This document shows, in pieces, positions 1-5,947 of a stretch of DNA of 5,947 bases. Below the pieces are notes generated by a model. That model was not told the origin of the DNA. It searched no databases and was given only the letters and a program-made list of their open reading frames with translations. Positions within the stretch are counted from its first letter, which is position 1; each line of letters opens with the position of its first letter. The stretch lies in IMG/VR virus record IMGVR_UViG_2913167280_000007, positions 1 to 5,947 of that record; one strand, given 5' to 3'. Origin of the DNA: a virus (lineage: Duplodnaviria; Heunggongvirae; Uroviricota; Caudoviricetes). Both the position numbers and the translations under genes were made by a program.

Positions 1-2073
1 CGGGCTTGGGGGCACTCCAGTGCAAGTCTCAGTAATTCGCGTCAGGTCGTTCAAGATGATACCGGGCTGTGGTGGTTTTACACCGGAGCATTTCCATTGT
101 TCGTAACTCCTGGAACAAATCCAGCTCTAGATCCTCTTTGGTATTGTGTAGGATTGCTAAATGGTAAGGAAGTAAATGATCTTTCTTCATGGTGCGATGT
201 GGTCTCCAACGTTGATGTAACCAGCCAGATTAGCAAGTATTTCAGAACCCTTTCTTACCTAAAATTTAACGCGATTTGTTACGGTGAAATTAAGATCTCA
301 TCTCAGGTAAGCACATTTGATGTTGCTTATGATATGAGCAAGTTAACCATCAACTTAGACCTTTCTGTTGTTGATACCACAATCACAAATAATGGATCTG
401 TTCTCCGAGTTACTGAACCAAATGAACAAGTTTTAACTGGGTTTAATGCTGGGTTAACTAGTATCAATCAGGATACGTCAAGCATTTTACTGCAATTTGG
501 GCAATGCACATTTTCCTATGTTGCTGAAGATAATGTGAATGACAGGGCTTATCTCAGATCAACTGGACAGGTAATCAGAAAAACAGATACACTGGTGCTT
601 ACTGCGACTGACAGAAGCATTTTCAGGAGCACACCTTCACTTTATGCATTGAATGGAACGGTTACCGCGAGCGTTAAACCATTAACTAATCGCATTACAT
701 GTTATCTGCCAAAAGTTGTATTAACAGGATCTTACCCTGGTACAGCACGCATAGAAAATATCGTTCAGTGTAGCAGGAATAATGTGAAATTTATTGGTGG
801 TGCATATGACCACCGCTCAACATCTATGGTAGCACACTCTTTTTTATCCATTTCGCAATGTGCATTCATAGAGATCGAATCCTTGCTGGCAAGTAATAAC
901 TTTGCAGAAAGCAGTCAGTACGCAATAAGCCTGTTTAGCACTGCATTTGTTCACATCCATAACTGTGCATTCCCTTACGGGTGGGCATTTGTTGATGGCA
1001 ATTTTATGCGCGACACAGTCATCGAGAAATGCACCATTGCTAATGCCTTTGGTGCTCATGCGATGGCCTGGAACATGACAGTACGAGATTGTAAGTTGCA
1101 GGGGGTAACCAGCAACGTTGACTTTACTACTATTGCTGGCGGCATCCATCTTACTGGAGGTGGGCAACTTCTTGTGGAAGACATCGAGTACTGGTACTCA
1201 GGTGGTGCAGCAGCAGCAGAATATCTAGTAGGGTGCAGACAGGATTACGGTCAGGGGTGGGAAGGGGATGTAACTGTAAGAAGAGTTAAAGTGTATGCCA
1301 ATGGGCTACCAAACCCTTTTATTCTGGTATATATGGCAGGTGGTTACCCGAATACTATGGATTATACGCGCCCGTATGCTTATCTCGGTAAGAAGATAAT
1401 TGTTCAAGACGTTACCATATACAAAGCTTTGATTGACCGCGCGCCAGCAAGCGTGATCATTGCACCTGTATGGTTCGCAAACCCTTCAAGTCCATCAATG
1501 CAATGGCGCCTTGCAGATGATGTTCTTATCGAGCGCATTAAAGCTGATGTTTCAGGATTTGGCGGCCTGAGGCTGAACCTTCAGATCCCAGGGGTGAAGA
1601 CAACTAATTACGTAGCTAAAACAGTGAATTTCACCGTTCGGGAATGTGATTTTACTACTGGTGGGATCACAATGAGCCTGGCCCAACCAGGCTCTGATGG
1701 GTCAAATATAACAAACCGGGTTCTTTTCGAAGATAATATTGGACCAGTATCAGGTACTCTCAGTGGAACTGTGAACGATAAATGGGAATTTAGGCGCTGC
1801 ACTATTGGAGCGCTTAACTCAGCAGGGAGCTTAAACGCCATAAAGGTATACCTAAAAAACTGCGATATCTCTGCTGCTTTGTGTGGAGGATCTAGCAGTG
1901 GTGAACAATGGTATTATTACGATAGCCATATCACTACGGCATCAACCGTTGATCTTGGCTCCCGTGCCGTTTACTGCCATGGTAATACCTGCCCTGTTGG
2001 AGGGGCTATCTCTGGGCGGACTCAGCCAGAGTGGTGGGAGTACAGAGATACGTCTATCTTTAGAACATCATAA
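1..2073 (+). CDS. Tailspike / tail-fibre protein, C-terminal receptor-binding portion (5'-truncated by the window edge; the listed ORF 97..2073 is the same frame, which is open from base 1)
   Basis: Frame 1 has no stop from base 1 to TAA at 2071-2073, so the gene starts upstream of the window. The product is rich in N/T/S/G/V with many short alternating hydrophobic repeats and scattered Cys, which is compatible with a parallel beta-helix fold (inference). It sits directly upstream of an O-antigen-modifying acyltransferase and a lysis cassette, as in epsilon15-like phages. Its stop is followed immediately by a strong terminator. No specific homologue was recognised by eye. Confidence 0.55.
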   Translation, partial: RAWGHSSASLSNSRQVVQDDTGLWWFYTGAFPLFVTPGTNPALDPLWYCVGLLNGKEVNDLSSWCDVVSNVDVTSQISKYFRTLSYLKFNAICYGEIKISSQVSTFDVAYDMSKLTINLDLSVVDTTITNNGSVLRVTEPNEQVLTGFNAGLTSINQDTSSILLQFGQCTFSYVAEDNVNDRAYLRSTGQVIRKTDTLVLTATDRSIFRSTPSLYALNGTVTASVKPLTNRITCYLPKVVLTGSYPGTARIENIVQCSRNNVKFIGGAYDHRSTSMVAHSFLSISQCAFIEIESLLASNNFAESSQYAISLFSTAFVHIHNCAFPYGWAFVDGNFMRDTVIEKCTIANAFGAHAMAWNMTVRDCKLQGVTSNVDFTTIAGGIHLTGGGQLLVEDIEYWYSGGAAAAEYLVGCRQDYGQGWEGDVTVRRVKVYANGLPNPFILVYMAGGYPNTMDYTRPYAYLGKKIIVQDVTIYKALIDRAPASVIIAPVWFANPSSPSMQWRLADDVLIERIKADVSGFGGLRLNLQIPGVKTTNYVAKTVNFTVRECDFTTGGITMSLAQPGSDGSNITNRVLFEDNIGPVSGTLSGTVNDKWEFRRCTIGALNSAGSLNAIKVYLKNCDISAALCGGSSSGEQWYYYDSHITTASTVDLGSRAVYCHGNTCPVGGAISGRTQPEWWEYRDTSIFRTS

Positions 2074-2103
2074 AAAAAATGGCCCGTTAAGGGCCATTTT
2101 TTT
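2074..2103. terminator. Bidirectional rho-independent terminator between the convergent tailspike and acyltransferase genes
   Basis: A-run 2074-2079, GC stem GGCCC (2081-2085), loop GTTAA, stem GGGCC (2091-2095), T-run 2097-2103. Read on either strand this gives a hairpin followed by a U-tract. It lies between two convergent stop codons. Confidence 0.75.
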
Positions 2104-3247
2104 AGATAGTTGTTGTATTCTTTTTTAGCAATGTTGCGCTTAGGTTTTTCCCAGTTTTTATGAATGGGGTTTCAACCATTTTGTATGTAATTATTGATGC
2201 TATTACAGTAACAAATAATATCATCGGGAATAAAGCATAGAATTCTGTTCTGGTAACGCCATAAAAATCATAAATATTAAAAACAGTAAATGCTGAGTAC
2301 AGTATAAATCCATGAGTAAGGTATATGCTGTAGCTTATGTCTCCTAAATAAACTAGGCCATTTTTGCGAAGAGCGCCAAAGATATCATTTCCAGATGAAA
2401 TTAAAATGAAAAGCATTCCAACAAGCAGCATTTGATATAAAGAGTAGCTAGGAGTCTGTGTAAATGCTATGGCGCATATAATAATTGCAAAAATAGAACA
2501 TGTATTACTTTTTAAGAAATTGATTTTTAGCTTAGTCACGTAATATGCAATCCCACCTATCGCAAATAAAATGAATAGCTCGTAGCGCACAGACGTTGCA
2601 TAAAGACATAAAATCAAAACAACAGCGGACAGTGCGCCGTATATTTTTGAGGAACCACCTTTTTTAATGATAAGGCTTAGTAGTGGGAGTGATATGTAAA
2701 ACAGAGCCTCATAGAATAAAGTCCACTGCACGCCGCTGATGCTTCTGCCAATGTTGTACCCATTAAGAGGCTGAAGGAAGAAAGCCATTCCGGCAGCTAA
2801 AGATTTAACAAGAGAAGATAGCGAGGTCTCCCCATCATATGTAACAAAGTAAACGCTGTATATTATTGCCAGCATGAGGATGTATAATGGATATATTCTG
2901 AATATCCTGCCAGCCGCTAACTCAGGCCACGATCTTACACCTTTAGATATTTTGCCTACAAAAAGGTACCCGGTAATCATGAAAAAAAGTGAAACAGGAA
3001 TTGATCCAAGATTTCCAACAAATAGACTATTTACTGCCCATGTTCCTTCAGCCTTCCAGTTGTACGTCAAGACGAAGTGATGAAGAAGCACCATTGGTGC
3101 CAATAGCCCTCTGAAACCATCAATAGTTATGTTTCTGTTATTGCTGGTATTTATTTCAGCAGAGTTAAAAACAAAGCTTGCAACGACAATGCAGATCGTA
3201 AAAATTGTGATTAATACCAAATTATCGAAGTACATCATTCTCGCCAT
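2102..3247 (-). CDS. Acyltransferase family 3 integral membrane protein, probable O-antigen / polysaccharide O-acetyltransferase (serotype-conversion moron)
   Basis: The 381-aa product is hydrophobic with multiple predicted TM segments. It carries the family signatures R-x-x-x-x-D-G-x-R-G...H-H ('RNITIDGFRGLLAPMVLLHH') and F-F-x-I-[ST]-G-[YF]-L ('FFMITGYLF'), as in OafA/Oac-type acyltransferases. GC is roughly 30%, far below the neighbouring lysis genes. It is on the opposite strand between the tailspike and the lysis cassette. The start codon is uncertain (ATG at 3245-3247 or the ATG ATG at 3233-3238) and no clear SD is present. Confidence 0.8.
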   Translation of the reverse strand: MARMMYFDNLVLITIFTICIVVASFVFNSAEINTSNNRNITIDGFRGLLAPMVLLHHFVLTYNWKAEGTWAVNSLFVGNLGSIPVSLFFMITGYLFVGKISKGVRSWPELAAGRIFRIYPLYILMLAIIYSVYFVTYDGETSLSSLVKSLAAGMAFFLQPLNGYNIGRSISGVQWTLFYEALFYISLPLLSLIIKKGGSSKIYGALSAVVLILCLYATSVRYELFILFAIGGIAYYVTKLKINFLKSNTCSIFAIIICAIAFTQTPSYSLYQMLLVGMLFILISSGNDIFGALRKNGLVYLGDISYSIYLTHGFILYSAFTVFNIYDFYGVTRTEFYALFPMILFVTVIASIITYKMVETPFIKTGKNLSATLLKKNTTTI

Positions 3248-3392: not shown

Positions 3393-3797
3393 ATGTCTGC
3401 ATCCATGACGGTTTCAGACATCAATCATGGGCTTAGCTTGTGTGCTCTTGGTGCCTGGTTGGTTGGCGTTCCGTCTGAGGTGGTGATCGGTGGTCTGGCG
3501 GGTGCGGTAATTTTTGTTACCTTTGCGGCAGAGTATCCGATAAAGCGGCGCTTGCTCCTGGCTGTCATCAGCTTCTTCTGCGGCCTCCTCTTCTACAAAC
3601 CAACGGCAACCATTCTCATTGGCTTCGCAGCCATCCTCCCCGGCGTAACATCTGACATGTTCGAAAAAGGTGTTGTGTTCTCTGCCGGTGCTTTCGTCTC
3701 TTCAATCGTGGCTGTCAGGTTTGGCGTCTGGTTGTATCACCGTTCTGAAAATCCGCGCGACCTTATCCCGGGGAGAAAAGACGATGACCAGTCCTGA
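3393..3797 (+). CDS. Small multi-pass membrane protein, putative holin / holin-associated protein (first gene of the lysis cassette)
   Basis: ORF in frame with GTG 3384, ATG 3393 and ATG 3405. ATG 3393 has a GGTGG SD-like element 5 nt upstream. Product is about 134 aa with 3-4 hydrophobic helices and a charged C-terminal tail (RSENPRDLIPGRKDDDQS). Its stop TGA (3795-3797) overlaps the start of the next gene. Position immediately upstream of the endolysin supports a lysis role. Start codon is uncertain. Confidence 0.5.
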   Translation: MSASMTVSDINHGLSLCALGAWLVGVPSEVVIGGLAGAVIFVTFAAEYPIKRRLLLAVISFFCGLLFYKPTATILIGFAAILPGVTSDMFEKGVVFSAGAFVSSIVAVRFGVWLYHRSENPRDLIPGRKDDDQS

Positions 3798-4071
3798 ACT
3801 CATTCTTAACGCTGTTATCTGCGGCGCTATAGCCATTCGCGTTCTTCTGTTTCGTCGTGACGGGTCACGCCATCGCCGCTGGGGTGGATGGCTCGCATAC
3901 CTGCTAATTGTCTCCGCCGCCAGCGTCCCTATCCGCACATTCTATGGCTATTACATCAGCGCAGATTGGTCAGAGGTAATCATTAAAGCGGTGTTCCTTG
4001 CTGCGCTTATTAAAACCAAGGGGAATGTGGTTCAGATATTCAAATTAACGAGGTCTCAACATGGACATTAA
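3784..4071 (+). CDS. Small membrane protein, putative holin (95 aa)
   Basis: ATG 3784 is preceded by SD GGGAGA (3771-3776). Product MTSPELILNAVICGAIAIRVLLF...: two or three TM helices, a positively charged loop (RRDGSRHRRWGG) and a basic C-terminus. The 5' end overlaps the previous gene by 14 nt and the 3' end overlaps the endolysin start (ATGGACATTAA). The listed ORF start at 3670 is an upstream in-frame extension with no RBS. Confidence 0.55.
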   Translation: MTSPELILNAVICGAIAIRVLLFRRDGSRHRRWGGWLAYLLIVSAASVPIRTFYGYYISADWSEVIIKAVFLAALIKTKGNVVQIFKLTRSQHGH

Positions 4072-4687
4072 CCAGTTCCAGCGCGCTGCTGGTATCAGTA
4101 CTGAGCTGGCGACGCGCTGGCATCCACACATTACCGCCGCCATGCAGGAGTTTGGCATTACTAATCCTGACGATCAGGCGATGTTTATCGCGCAGACCGG
4201 GCATGAGAGTACAGGCTTTACGCGCCTGGTGGAGAGCTTCAACTACAGCGTTGCTGGTCTTGCTGACTTCATTCGCACCGGGCGCATTACTCAACAGCAG
4301 GCGAATGCGCTTGGCCGCCGCCAGGGTGAGCCGTCGCTTCCTCTGGAGTGCCAGCGTGCGATCGCCAATCTGGTGTACAGCAAGCGCATGGGAAACAAGG
4401 GCCCGACTGATGGATGGTTCTACCGTGGGCGTGGGCTTATTCAGATCACTGGCCTGAACAATTATCGCGCCTGCGGGAACGCTATCAAAGCCGATCTGGT
4501 GTCTCAGCCTGAACTGCTGGCACAGGATGCGTATGCCGCCCGCAGCGCTGCCTGGTTCTACTCTGTGAATGGCTGCCTGAAATATACCGGTGACCTGGTG
4601 CGAGTCACGCAGATTATCAACGGTGGCCAGAACGGAATTGATGACCGCCGGGCGCGCTATGCTGCTGCGAAAAAGGCGCTGGTATGA
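4061..4687 (+). CDS. Endolysin, glycoside hydrolase family 19 (chitinase-like lysozyme)
   Basis: 208 aa. SD ACGAGG (4048-4053) lies 7 nt before ATG 4061. Motifs 'DQAMFIAQTGHESTGF', 'GRGLIQITGLNNY' and 'VTQIINGGQNGIDDR' match the GH19 catalytic core as I recall it from epsilon15-like Salmonella phage endolysins. No N-terminal TM or signal-anchor, so it is a canonical holin-dependent soluble endolysin. The stop overlaps the Rz start (ATGA at 4684-4687). Confidence 0.9.
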   Translation: MDINQFQRAAGISTELATRWHPHITAAMQEFGITNPDDQAMFIAQTGHESTGFTRLVESFNYSVAGLADFIRTGRITQQQANALGRRQGEPSLPLECQRAIANLVYSKRMGNKGPTDGWFYRGRGLIQITGLNNYRACGNAIKADLVSQPELLAQDAYAARSAAWFYSVNGCLKYTGDLVRVTQIINGGQNGIDDRRARYAAAKKALV

Positions 4688-5184
4688 TTTTGGCATTCAT
4701 AAAAGCGTACTGGAGGCAGCTGATCATTGTTGTGTTGCTCTCTGCGCTGGTAGTCGGTGGCATCGTTGCATGGAAGGTTCACGGCAGCCAACAGTATGAT
4801 GCCGGATATGCACAGGCAAAGGCAGACCGTAAAGCCGAAGATGATAAAACTCGCCAGAAGGATGAGCAGGAGAAAGCGACCAATGAACGTGAAGCTCAGC
4901 AAAGGATCGACCAGGCGCGCAATGATGCTCTTGATGCTGCCGCTCGCGCTGGCAGGTTGCAGCAGCAGCTCATTGCCATCGACAAGCAGCTCAGGCAGTA
5001 TAACGCCACTGTCGGCGCTGGGCCGTCAGCCGCAGACACCGGAATTTTGCTTGCCGACGTGCTCCGCCAATCTCTCGAAAGAAACCGAGTCCTGGCAGAA
5101 TACGCTGACCGGGCAGCCGAAGCCGGGCGGGTCTGCGAACGTCAGTACGACACCCTGACGAAACAGGTCACAGTTTCCCGGTGA
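4684..5184 (+). CDS. Rz: Rz-like i-spanin (inner-membrane spanin subunit)
   Basis: 166 aa. N-terminal TM helix (LIIVVLLSALVVGGIVAW), then a charged periplasmic domain predicted to be coiled coil (rich in A/E/K/R/Q) with a single Cys near the C-terminus. Translationally coupled to the endolysin, and it contains the embedded +1-frame Rz1 gene. Confidence 0.85.
   Translation: MILAFIKAYWRQLIIVVLLSALVVGGIVAWKVHGSQQYDAGYAQAKADRKAEDDKTRQKDEQEKATNEREAQQRIDQARNDALDAAARAGRLQQQLIAIDKQLRQYNATVGAGPSAADTGILLADVLRQSLERNRVLAEYADRAAEAGRVCERQYDTLTKQVTVSR
4922..5158 (+). CDS. Rz1: Rz1-like o-spanin (outer-membrane lipoprotein), embedded in the +1 frame of Rz
   Basis: ATG ATG at 4922-4927 begins MMLLMLPLALAG|C: a short signal peptide with lipobox L-A-G-C. 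The mature part is Ser/Pro/Thr-rich with further Cys (EFCLPTC), as is typical of Rz1. It lies entirely inside Rz. The listed ORF 4757..5158 is the same frame with a non-coding upstream extension. Confidence 0.8.
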   Translation: MMLLMLPLALAGCSSSSLPSTSSSGSITPLSALGRQPQTPEFCLPTCSANLSKETESWQNTLTGQPKPGGSANVSTTP

Positions 5185-5300
5185 CGGTATATAAAACGGT
5201 ACGCCAAAAAACGGATTTAATAAAGTTGTTACCATTCAATTGGTTATGCTTACCGTAAATAATTGAGTGGAATGATTTAATTCCTGCACTATGAATGAAC

Positions 5301-5330
5301 AAAACCCTCTGTTGCTACAGAGGGTTTTTT
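5301..5330 (+). terminator. Rho-independent terminator ending the lysis operon
   Basis: AAAA (5301-5304), stem CCCTCTG (5305-5311), loop TTGCTA, stem CAGAGGG (5318-5324), T-run 5325-5330. It lies about 120 nt downstream of the Rz stop. Confidence 0.7.
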
Positions 5331-5407
5331 ATATTGCTGACTAAAGTTAGCAATATAAAAAAGCCTGTAATCCTCACGAATCATAGGCTTGAAGTTACTG
5401 ACAGCGA

Positions 5408-5947
5408 TTAATTAAACCAACTGTCCGATTTATTCTCTTCTGCTTTACCCACGCTTTTCATCAAATCGCGACCACCTTCTGTCACATTCCTGTTAGCGTC
5501 AGCTTCAGATTGCACGACATCAGTTTGCGCGGCTTTGTGCTTCAGCTCCTGATCGATAAATTCGTTCTCGCGCTTAACGCGGGCTTCTTCTTTCGCCAGC
5601 GCCAGTTTTTGTTTCTGAATCTCTAAGCTGCGCAGCTCATCTTCATAACTTTGATCGCGTTTTTTATCCGCAGTGGCTTCGGCGTCCAGTTTATCCTGGC
5701 GAGCTTTCTTATCCGCTGCTGCTGCCGCCGCTCTTTTATTGGCGGCGGCCTGAGCGTTTGCGCGACGCTGTTTCTCTTGTTGAATTTCCCTGTTGCGCTC
5801 CGCGACCCATTCGTCATGCTGCCTTTGCTCTTCATTTTTACCTTGCTGTTCCGCTTCTGCGACAGCCGAGAGTTGATCCTGCAATGATGAGGCGGCAGCC
5901 GGATAGCTTAAGGAGGCTAAGATGGCGCAAAGAAAAACTTTCTTCAT
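5408..5947 (-). CDS. Secreted (Sec signal peptide) highly charged coiled-coil protein of unknown function; candidate moron at the lambda bor position
   Basis: 179 aa. N-terminal MKKVFLCAILASLSYPAAASS looks like a signal peptide with an A-x-A type cleavage site. The remainder is E/K/R/Q/A-rich, predicted helical or coiled coil, and includes a poly-Ala tract (RAAAAAADKK). The start ATG is at the very window edge (5945-5947). It converges on the lysis operon. No family was recognised. Confidence 0.6.
   Translation of the reverse strand: MKKVFLCAILASLSYPAAASSLQDQLSAVAEAEQQGKNEEQRQHDEWVAERNREIQQEKQRRANAQAAANKRAAAAAADKKARQDKLDAEATADKKRDQSYEDELRSLEIQKQKLALAKEEARVKRENEFIDQELKHKAAQTDVVQSEADANRNVTEGGRDLMKSVGKAEENKSDSWFN

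What the first reader, a model, noticed from the sequence alone, without database searches (positions are those of the whole stretch)
1..2073. Tailspike with a probable domain-swap junction near base ~100 and an unrecognised receptor-binding domain
The first ~100 nt of the window match the GC-richer backbone composition, then the gene becomes AT-rich. Tailspikes classically join a conserved particle-binding N-terminal domain to an exchangeable receptor-binding and glycan-degrading domain. The ~650-aa C-terminal part has beta-helix-like composition, but I could not match it to any known tailspike (P22, Sf6, HK620) by eye. It may encode a new glycan specificity or depolymerase activity, and may be functionally linked to the acyltransferase next door.
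Basis: inference. Interest (0 to 1): 0.55.

Follow-up and report, generated by a model that had tools for sequence, protein, structure and literature searches.

The report
Prophage tailspike with paired O-acetyltransferase
This is the receptor-binding part of a prophage tailspike, a beta-helix enzyme that probably cuts an acidic surface sugar polymer, and it travels between very different phages with a neighbouring sugar-acetylating gene; the swap point proposed at base ~100 is not where the modules join.

Summary
Bases 1-2073 are the 3' 690 codons of a tailspike gene. It is cut at its 5' end because window base 1 is the end of the source contig. The backbone is an epsilon15/phiV10-like prophage beside host yfgI.

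The module is rare: 49 hits at E<=0.001 among 1.84 billion cluster representatives, and no curated family. It occurs behind at least three unrelated virion-anchor domains, in five kinds of temperate backbone plus lytic phages.

A junction at base ~100 is not supported. Every relative, including annotated Ackermannviridae tailspikes, aligns continuously across it. Base 100 lies inside a conserved neck connector (aa ~6-56). The epsilon15-type anchor should end about 50-60 nt upstream of the window. Real mosaic signals lie at nt ~200-410 and ~495.

The link to the acyltransferase is supported by synteny. A convergent Acyl_transf_3 gene follows the spike in all six kinds of temperate context with this gene examined besides the window (one Erwinia phage has gtrABC). 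It is co-inherited with the closest relatives.

Verdict: a new member of a known kind.

The parts
1..2073 (+). Tailspike gene, 3' 690 codons plus stop. The 5' end is missing because the contig ends at base 1.
   Evidence: Open frame from base 1. The window is identical to the end of RHJM01000019.1. It is 31% identical over aa 6-690 to annotated Ackermannviridae tailspikes. There are 12 relatives of 823-961 aa.
16..168 (+). Neck connector, aa ~6-56, with the motif GLWWFYTG..P..V.PG..P..D..WYCVGLLNG. It is shared by spikes with different anchors and different bodies. The proposed junction at base ~100 falls inside it.
   Evidence: Conserved in all relatives whatever their N-terminal domain. Also present in Salmonella phage Mutine TSP aa 513-571 and Escherichia phage KKE7M TSP aa 196-255, where similarity to the window fades within the next ~40-80 residues and the bodies are unrelated. 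The model shows short strands here, with pLDDT ~80.
169..2070 (+). Right-handed parallel beta-helix body and C-terminal beta region, aa 57-690. Probable polysaccharide lyase.
919..921 (+). Codon of Tyr307, candidate catalytic Tyr, aligned with Tyr528 of K64-ORF41.
   Evidence: HMMER and hhalign both align it. K64-ORF41 numbering was checked. Invariant in 16 family members down to 21% identity. Catalytic role of Tyr528 taken from PMC11652154.
1057..1059 (+). Codon of His353 in the invariant G-x-HAMAWN motif, candidate catalytic His, aligned with His574 of K64-ORF41.
   Evidence: Aligned by HMMER. The Tyr-to-His spacing is 46 residues in both proteins. Invariant. hhalign shifts this stretch by about one rung, so the assignment is less secure.
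1237..1239 (+). Codon of Arg413 in the motif R-x-DYGQGWEG, candidate carboxylate-neutralising Arg, aligned with Arg628 of K64-ORF41.
   Evidence: Aligned by HMMER and hhalign. Invariant.
2074..2101 (.). Bidirectional intrinsic terminator between the convergent tailspike and acyltransferase genes: A-run, GGCCC-GTTAA-GGGCC hairpin, T-run.
   Evidence: Sequence. Fold -19.3 kcal/mol, z -6.7, and none of 200 shuffles folds as well.
2102..3247 (-). AT3-only membrane acyltransferase, 381 aa. Probable O-antigen or capsule O-acetyltransferase. It is the AT-richest gene of the window (36.4% GC).
   Evidence: Pfam Acyl_transf_3 109 bits against a cut-off of 31. PHROG 3333 'O-acetyltransferase', E 8e-55. 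About 10 hydrophobic segments, and motifs DGFRG(43), HH(56-57), FFMITG(88) and RIFR(114). GC. 73% identical to the partial gene after P0001 and 55% to the gene after P0002.
3393..5184 (+). Backbone lysis cassette (context only): holins at 3393-3797 and 3784-4071, GH19 endolysin at 4061-4687, Rz-like i-spanin at 4684-5184, and an embedded Rz1-like lipoprotein at 4922-5158.
   Evidence: Pfam hits. Gene calls. 74-82% nucleotide identity to TL-2011b, phiV10, epsilon15 and SPN1S. Lipobox LAGC.
5408..5947 (-). Host yfgI-like gene (DUF5384). The prophage end lies between 5185 and 5407.
   Evidence: Pfam DUF5384, 207 bits. It is followed in the contig by yfgH-like, yfgG-like (DUF2633), pdeF, ppx and ppk genes, which are 88.7% identical to E. 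coli.

Best explanation
Bases 1-2073 encode the distal 690 residues of the tailspike of an epsilon15/phiV10-like temperate podovirus. The prophage is integrated next to yfgI in a non-coli Escherichia-like host. The missing 5' part (about 245 codons, inferred from P0007) would encode the epsilon15-type virion anchor.

The in-window part has two sections. The first is a short conserved neck connector (aa ~6-56). The second is a right-handed beta-helix with a C-terminal beta region. This part binds the host surface polysaccharide, either O-antigen or capsule. It most likely cleaves the polymer by beta-elimination at a uronic acid, using Tyr307, His353 and Arg413, as the K64-ORF41 and K1 capsule lyases do.

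The convergent AT3 gene at 2102-3247 acetylates that same polysaccharide in the lysogen. This masks the receptor against superinfection and against loss of progeny on cell debris, as shown for Sf6 Oac and phiV10 Oac.

Spike body and acyltransferase form a two-gene cassette. It is AT-rich, has one shared bidirectional terminator, and has moved between P22-like, epsilon15-like and myovirus backbones. The conserved neck is the likely recombination handle.

Shown here: gene identity, fold, modular distribution, synteny and invariant residues. Inferred: lyase chemistry, the substrate, and receptor masking.

The overall confidence of 0.65 combines about 0.97 for 'beta-helix tailspike module', about 0.85 for 'the anchor junction is not at base ~100', about 0.7 for the functional pairing with the acyltransferase, and about 0.55 for lyase chemistry.
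For: Backbone and truncation.

Fold:
- Model pLDDT 82.7.
- Foldseek top hits are 8x8m (K64-ORF41), the K1 lyase 7w1c, LKA1 gp49, phi297 gp61 and AP22 gp54.

Catalytic residues:
- K64-ORF41 is a beta-elimination lyase with Tyr528/His574/Arg628 (PMC11652154).
- Its numbering was verified on MG835568.
- These residues align with window Y307/H353/R413 (hhalign agrees for Tyr and Arg).
- All three are among only 18 invariant positions in 16 relatives down to 21% identity.

Modularity:
- The same module follows PF09008, PF18668 and epsilon15-like or T7-like-prophage N-termini.
- The neck is shared with unrelated spikes.

Cassette:
- blastn of window 70-2566 against the P22-like contig L004 gives 77% identity and spans both genes, up to that contig's end.
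- Acyltransferase identity tracks spike identity: 84%/73% for L004 and 72%/55% for L005.
- An AT3 gene follows the spike in L003, L004, L005/L009, L006, L007/L008/L010/L011 and L013/L014.

Precedent for masking: Sf6, phiV10 and BTP1 (PMC9558356). phiV10 and TL-2011b have the same spike, Oac, lysis order.
Against: - Sequence similarity to the lyase is marginal (HMMER E 0.001-0.002, 13-14% identity).
- The His alignment depends on the method.
- No model coordinates were available to check active-site geometry.
- The host polysaccharide is unknown, so a uronic-acid substrate is untested.
- More distant members of the spike family carry non-orthologous AT3 or AT3-SGNH genes, or gtrABC. L003 and L007 have 78% identical spikes but unrelated acyltransferases. 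So the neighbouring position is also a general slot for O-antigen modifiers, not only a co-inherited pair.
- The anchor domain of this particular gene was never seen.
Confidence: 0.65

Rival explanations
1. One reading: a recombination junction at about base 100 joins the conserved epsilon15-type particle-binding domain (nt 1-100) to a foreign receptor-binding domain.
For: - GC is 55% in nt 1-96 against 38% in the next 300 nt, equal to the backbone's 55%.
- The epsilon15-like relative L003 shows the same composition step at the homologous place: upstream 0.50, this segment 0.51, next 300 nt 0.42.
- At nt 40-99 the window agrees more often with epsilon15-like or T7-like-prophage relatives than with its closest relatives overall: 10/4, 14/5 and 9/2 informative sites. 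Amino-acid identity over aa 14-33 is 70-75% against 45-50%.
- The contig breaks exactly at base 1, as it would at the edge of a repeat.
Against: - Continuous alignments cross base 100 in all relatives, including annotated tailspikes.
- nt 1-100 have no similarity to phiV10 or TL-2011b tailspikes, which carry the conserved anchor.
- aa 33 lies mid-strand in a folded, widely shared neck.
- The GC3 excess is not significant (p 0.11).
- The maximum chi-square breakpoints fall at nt 321-413 (aa-level estimate aa 63-92) and at nt 495, not at 100.
Confidence: 0.12
2. The spike is a glycoside hydrolase (endoglycosidase), like the P22, Sf6, HK620 and CBA120 spikes, and uses invariant acidic residues (for example D332, D415, E421) rather than a lyase triad.
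For: - Most characterised O-antigen tailspikes of enterobacterial temperate phages are hydrolases (background knowledge).
- D332 and D415 are invariant in the wide alignment, and E421 in the closer one.
Against: - The best and longest fold match is to a lyase (557 aligned residues against about 300 for hydrolases), and the next tailspike hits are lyases too.
- Tyr, His and Arg are invariant and align with the lyase residues.
Confidence: 0.25
3. The adjacency of the acyltransferase is positional only. The site between the tailspike and the lysis or att region is a general landing slot for morons, and this acyltransferase acts on a glycan unrelated to the spike's receptor.
For: - The slot holds different things in different relatives: AT3, AT3-SGNH or gtrABC.
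- L003 and L007 have 78% identical spikes but unrelated acyltransferases.
- The lytic relative has nothing in the slot.
Against: - Every occupant is an O-antigen or surface-glycan modifier.
- For the three closest spikes the acyltransferase is orthologous, and nucleotide similarity runs through both genes across different backbones.
- There is experimental precedent in Sf6, phiV10 and BTP1.
Confidence: 0.15

Closest known systems
Klebsiella phage SH-Kp 152410 K64-ORF41 capsule depolymerase (PDB 8x8m), with the related K1 lyase (7w1c), LKA1 gp49, phi297 gp61 and AP22 gp54
   Different: Identity is only 13-14%. The anchor is a T7-type gp17 N-terminus in a lytic Autographivirus. The target there is a Klebsiella capsule. 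That spike has no partner acyltransferase. The His alignment depends on the method.
phiV10 tailspike plus Oac, TL-2011b spike plus O-acetyltransferase, and epsilon15 gp20 (Uetakevirus-type prophages)
   Same: The backbone and gene order match: spike, O-antigen modifier, holins, GH19 endolysin, spanins, then the prophage end. The lysis cassette is 74-82% identical. The logic of a spike paired with a receptor-masking acetyltransferase is the same.
   Different: The receptor-binding parts are unrelated. The acyltransferase is only about 25% identical to phiV10 Oac over a short stretch. TL-2011b's Oac is co-directional with the spike rather than convergent.
Tailspikes of Ackermannviridae phages EspM4VN and Dickeya RC-2014/phiDP10.3
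   Same: They are true sequence homologues of the whole in-window part (31% identity over aa 6-690), and they are annotated as tailspikes.
   Different: They are lytic myoviruses with multi-spike complexes and PF18668-type N-termini. They have no acyltransferase partner.
P22, Sf6 and HK620 tailspikes
   Same: They share the modular plan of an N-terminal head-binding domain, a neck and a beta-helix. The closest relative P0001 (84%) carries the P22 head-binding domain PF09008 and sits in a P22-like gene order. Serotype-conversion genes lie next to the spike.
   Different: The body fold matches only distantly (Foldseek E 1e-3 to 7e-3). Those enzymes are endoglycosidases, not lyases.

Membership tests
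Right-handed parallel beta-helix tailspikes / depolymerases (pectin-lyase-like fold) | Beta-helix fold of the receptor-binding body | tested here: met
   Model pLDDT 82.7. All top PDB and BFVD matches are beta-helix spikes.
Right-handed parallel beta-helix tailspikes / depolymerases (pectin-lyase-like fold) | Match to Pfam Beta_helix (PF13229) above the gathering score | tested here: not met
   17.1 bits against a cut-off of 25.9. No NCBIfam hit.
Right-handed parallel beta-helix tailspikes / depolymerases (pectin-lyase-like fold) | Gene sits in the tail-spike slot of a phage, behind a virion-anchor domain | tested here: met
   Shown for the relatives. For the window gene itself the anchor lies outside the contig.
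Right-handed parallel beta-helix tailspikes / depolymerases (pectin-lyase-like fold) | Homotrimer in the virion | not testable with these tools
   Only a monomer could be predicted.
K64-ORF41 / K1-type tailspike polysaccharide lyases | Catalytic Tyr, His and Arg conserved | tested here: inconclusive
   Tyr307 and Arg413 are aligned by HMMER and hhalign. His353 is aligned by HMMER only. All three are invariant.
K64-ORF41 / K1-type tailspike polysaccharide lyases | Significant sequence or profile homology | tested here: inconclusive
   hmmsearch E 0.0012. hhalign probability 93.8%, E 1.8e-7. 13-14% identity.
K64-ORF41 / K1-type tailspike polysaccharide lyases | Beta-elimination products from a uronic-acid polysaccharide | not testable with these tools
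   Needs the purified enzyme and the host glycan.
Epsilon15/phiV10-type tailspikes | Conserved N-terminal anchor of about 225 aa | not testable with these tools
   The 5' end of the gene lies beyond the contig end. Relative P0007, in the same kind of prophage, has the anchor (72% identical to phiV10 over 227 aa).
Epsilon15/phiV10-type tailspikes | Receptor-binding part related to the phiV10 or TL-2011b spikes | tested here: not met
   No significant alignment. The epsilon15 spike itself was not compared directly.
AT3 (Acyl_transf_3) O-antigen acetyltransferases (neighbouring gene) | Pfam PF01757 above the gathering score, a multi-pass membrane protein, and conserved Arg/His, FFxI(S/T)G and RxxR motifs | tested here: met
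   109 bits against a cut-off of 31. About 10 hydrophobic segments and the motifs. Which motifs define the family is from background knowledge and PMC9558356.
AT3 (Acyl_transf_3) O-antigen acetyltransferases (neighbouring gene) | Acetylates the spike's receptor glycan | not testable with these tools
   Inferred from synteny and from precedent.

The most novel reading that the evidence does not exclude
The spike body and the AT3 gene are a self-contained 'recognise-and-mask' cassette that moves between unrelated phage morphotypes. On the spike side the conserved neck serves as a universal splice site. A shared bidirectional terminator separates the two genes. The body would found a previously uncharacterised family of O-antigen or capsule lyases, with a glycan specificity not yet described in Escherichia.
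Probability: 0.3. Interest if true: 0.45.

Novelty: new member of a known kind. Interest (0 to 1): 0.3.

Why it matters
Tailspike bodies set phage host range and are a source of depolymerases for typing and therapy. This one belongs to a small family with no curated model: 49 hits at E<=0.001 among 1.84 billion cluster representatives. Its probable lyase chemistry can be tested directly.

The family also gives a clean natural example of one receptor-binding module being reused. It appears in P22-like, epsilon15-like and T7-like podovirus prophages, in a myovirus prophage, in siphovirus prophages, and in lytic Ackermannviridae. In temperate phages the neighbour is nearly always a glycan modifier. 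That helps in predicting the serotype conversion and the receptor of a prophage together. None of this changes current concepts.

Tried and rejected
- Megablast and blastn of the spike DNA against the phage and complete E. coli collections found nothing.
- The search for related loci in the species-representative genomes found no relative.
- I searched for proteins or DNA sharing only the neck, which would have fixed the junction. All four attempts failed:
  - A 66-aa protein search returned no candidates.
  - A degenerate DNA pattern for DDTGLWWFYTGAFP in genome contigs gave 0 hits.
  - The pattern G-x-WWFYTG-xx-P in metagenome contigs gave one chance hit in a Bacteroidetes-like contig, L016.
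  - The same pattern in viral contigs returned only the loci already known.
- The source assembly accession is not mentioned in the paper library, so the host species is inferred only from 88.7% identity of ppk-ppx-pdeF to E. coli.
- I considered a frameshift or another reading frame to explain the divergent first 12 residues. I rejected it because the other frames give no better match (inspection).
- I considered whether nt 1-100 are the epsilon15-type anchor. I rejected it.
Full report
**What is in the window.** Frame 1 is open from base 1 to a stop at 2071-2073. The window is identical to the first 5947 bases of record RHJM01000019.1 of assembly GCA_004212315.1, so base 1 is a contig end and the gene is cut at its 5' side. 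The features downstream are:
- a hairpin terminator at 2074-2101;
- a convergent Acyl_transf_3 gene at 2102-3247 on the minus strand;
- two holin genes, a GH19 endolysin and an Rz-like spanin with an embedded Rz1-like lipoprotein;
- an AT-rich gap;
- a yfgI-like host gene at 5408-5947 on the minus strand.

The contig continues with yfgH-like and yfgG-like genes, pdeF, ppx and ppk, which are 88.7% identical to E. coli. The lysis cassette is 74-82% identical to TL-2011b, phiV10, epsilon15 and SPN1S. These phages have the same order of spike, O-antigen modifier and lysis genes. The window is therefore the right end of an epsilon15/phiV10-like prophage in a non-coli Escherichia-like host. The species assignment is inference.

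**The observation.**
- nt 1-96 have 55.2% GC. The next 300 nt have 38%, the rest of the gene 43.6%, and the lysis genes 55.2%.
- Only 2.2% of 96-nt windows elsewhere in the gene reach 55.2%.
- The step is real but weak. Third-position GC is 16/32 against 0.38 elsewhere (p = 0.11).
- The excess is mainly in codon positions 1 and 2, which reflects the Trp/Gly/Ala/Arg-rich peptide.
- The homologous 96 nt are also GC-richer than what follows in two relatives on other backbones.

**What the protein is.**
- A search of 5.8 billion clustered proteins found 12 relatives.
- An exhaustive search of 1.84 billion cluster representatives with aa 57-690 found 49 hits at E<=0.001 and 13 at E<=1e-30.
- No curated family reaches threshold.
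- In annotated phage genomes the best matches are tailspikes of Ackermannviridae phages EspM4VN and Dickeya RC-2014, at 31% identity over aa 10-690 and 6-690.
- The AlphaFold2 model (pLDDT 82.7, pTM 0.85) is almost all beta.

**Probable chemistry.**
- A review lists K64-ORF41 as a beta-elimination lyase with Tyr528, His574 and Arg628 (PMC11652154). I confirmed those residues in the phage record.
- Two HMMER profile alignments place them on window Tyr307, His353 and Arg413.
- hhalign (probability 93.8%) agrees for Tyr and Arg but shifts the His stretch by about one rung.
- The Tyr-to-His spacing is 46 residues in both proteins.
- In a 16-member alignment reaching 21% identity only 18 positions are invariant, and these three are among them.

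I therefore favour a polysaccharide lyase acting on a uronic-acid-containing O-antigen or capsule, at about 55% confidence. A hydrolase is the main rival.

**The junction.** The same ~690-residue part is joined to several N-terminal domains:
- a P22 head-binding domain (P0001 at 84% identity, and P0008);
- PF18668 N-terminal domains (P0002-5 and P0009-12);
- N-termini of the epsilon15/phiV10 type (P0007, 72% identical to phiV10 over 227 aa) or of a T7-like prophage (P0006).

In all of these, homology to the window starts at window aa 5-13 and runs on without a break. Further points:
- blastn aligns window 43-344 to the epsilon15-like locus and 70-2566 to the P22-like locus.
- Window aa ~6-56 carry the motif GLWWFYTG..P..V.PG..P..D..WYCVGLLNG. 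This stretch recurs in spikes with unrelated bodies: Mutine TSP aa 513-571 and KKE7M TSP aa 196-255. It is a shared neck connector, and base 100 (aa 33) lies in its middle.
- phiV10 and TL-2011b spikes have the epsilon15-type anchor but nothing similar to window aa 1-33.
- The anchor ends near aa 227-230 in P0007, and window aa 8 matches P0007 aa 253. So the anchor junction should lie about 50-60 nt upstream of base 1.

Mosaicism does exist inside the window:
- Identity to the P0001 gene steps from 0.64 to 0.80 at nt 495 (maximum chi-square 48.9).
- Informative sites switch from 'epsilon15-like relative or undecided' to 'P0001/P0002-like' at nt 321-413, or at aa 63-92 in the amino-acid version (permutation p <= 0.002).
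- At nt 40-150 the counts lean to the epsilon15-like relatives, but they are small.

A crossover somewhere in or just after the neck is plausible. A domain junction at base 100 is not shown.

**The acyltransferase link.**
- The neighbouring gene is an AT3-only membrane protein with the usual motifs.
- Nucleotide similarity to the P22-like contig runs through the spike body, the terminator and into the acyltransferase, until that contig ends.
- Acyltransferase identity follows spike identity for the closest relatives: spike 84% with acyltransferase 73% in the P22-like contig, and 72% with 55% in a myovirus prophage.
- A convergent AT3 or AT3-SGNH gene follows the spike in the epsilon15-like, P22-like, myovirus, siphovirus (two kinds) and T7-like prophage contexts.
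- An Erwinia P22-like phage has gtrABC there instead, and a lytic SU10-like phage has nothing.
- L003 and L007 have 78% identical spikes but unrelated acyltransferases.

So the slot is also refilled independently. In all cases it holds a surface-glycan modifier. This matches the established Sf6, phiV10 and BTP1 cases, where acetylation blocks the spike of the same phage (PMC9558356).

**Verdict.** The finding is a real and fairly rare tailspike module with a probable lyase mechanism and a partner acetyltransferase. The specific claim of a junction at base ~100 is not supported. It is a new member of known kinds (a beta-helix depolymerase spike, and AT3 seroconversion). It is of moderate-to-low general interest, but it is a useful example of module reuse across phage types.

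Noticed in passing
window 1 (contig end): The source contig ends exactly where the module shared by all relatives begins. An assembly break there would be expected if the upstream anchor-coding DNA is repeated in that genome, for example in a second related prophage.
   Followed up: partly
window ~495 (aa ~165, motif LQFG-x-CTFSY): There is a sharp identity step against the closest relative, from 0.64 to 0.80. P0002 and P0003 are identical up to this same motif and diverge after it. This suggests a recurrent internal recombination point between an N-proximal subdomain and the main beta-helix.
   Followed up: partly
window 2074-2101: A perfect A-run, GGCCC-loop-GGGCC, T-run hairpin sits between the convergent spike and acyltransferase genes. 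It looks like a bidirectional terminator (-19.3 kcal/mol, z -6.7).
   Followed up: yes
window 2102-3247: The acyltransferase gene has the lowest GC of the window (36.4%, against 55% for the lysis genes). The spike body is intermediate at 43.6%. Both look foreign to the backbone.
   Followed up: partly
window 4922-5158: An Rz1-like o-spanin is embedded out of frame in the Rz-like gene. It has a signal peptide with the lipobox LALAGC. It is not among the gene calls of the source record.
   Followed up: partly
window 3393-3797 and 3784-4071: Two holin-family genes (Phage_holin_8 and Phage_holin_3_7) overlap by 14 nt. The second overlaps the endolysin start by 11 nt.
   Followed up: no
window 5185-5407; L022 8426-10001: The prophage-host boundary is an AT-rich gap before yfgI. 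The deposited TL-2011b 'phage genome' also contains DUF5384 (yfgI-like) and DUF2633 (yfgG-like) genes, so that record probably includes host flank.
   Followed up: no
L003 versus L007: The spikes are 78% identical over 926 aa, but the acyltransferases next to them are unrelated (a 356-aa AT3 against a 618-aa AT3-SGNH). The modifier has been replaced without replacing the spike.
   Followed up: partly
L011 5260-8042: In this IMG/VR contig the homologous spike is split into two ORFs (5260-6561 and 6726-8042). This may be a pseudogene or a sequencing error.
   Followed up: no
L012 7506-10253: In an Erwinia P22-like phage the spike is a 34% relative, and a gtrA / GT2 / 493-aa gtrC-like operon follows it instead of an acyltransferase.
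   Followed up: no
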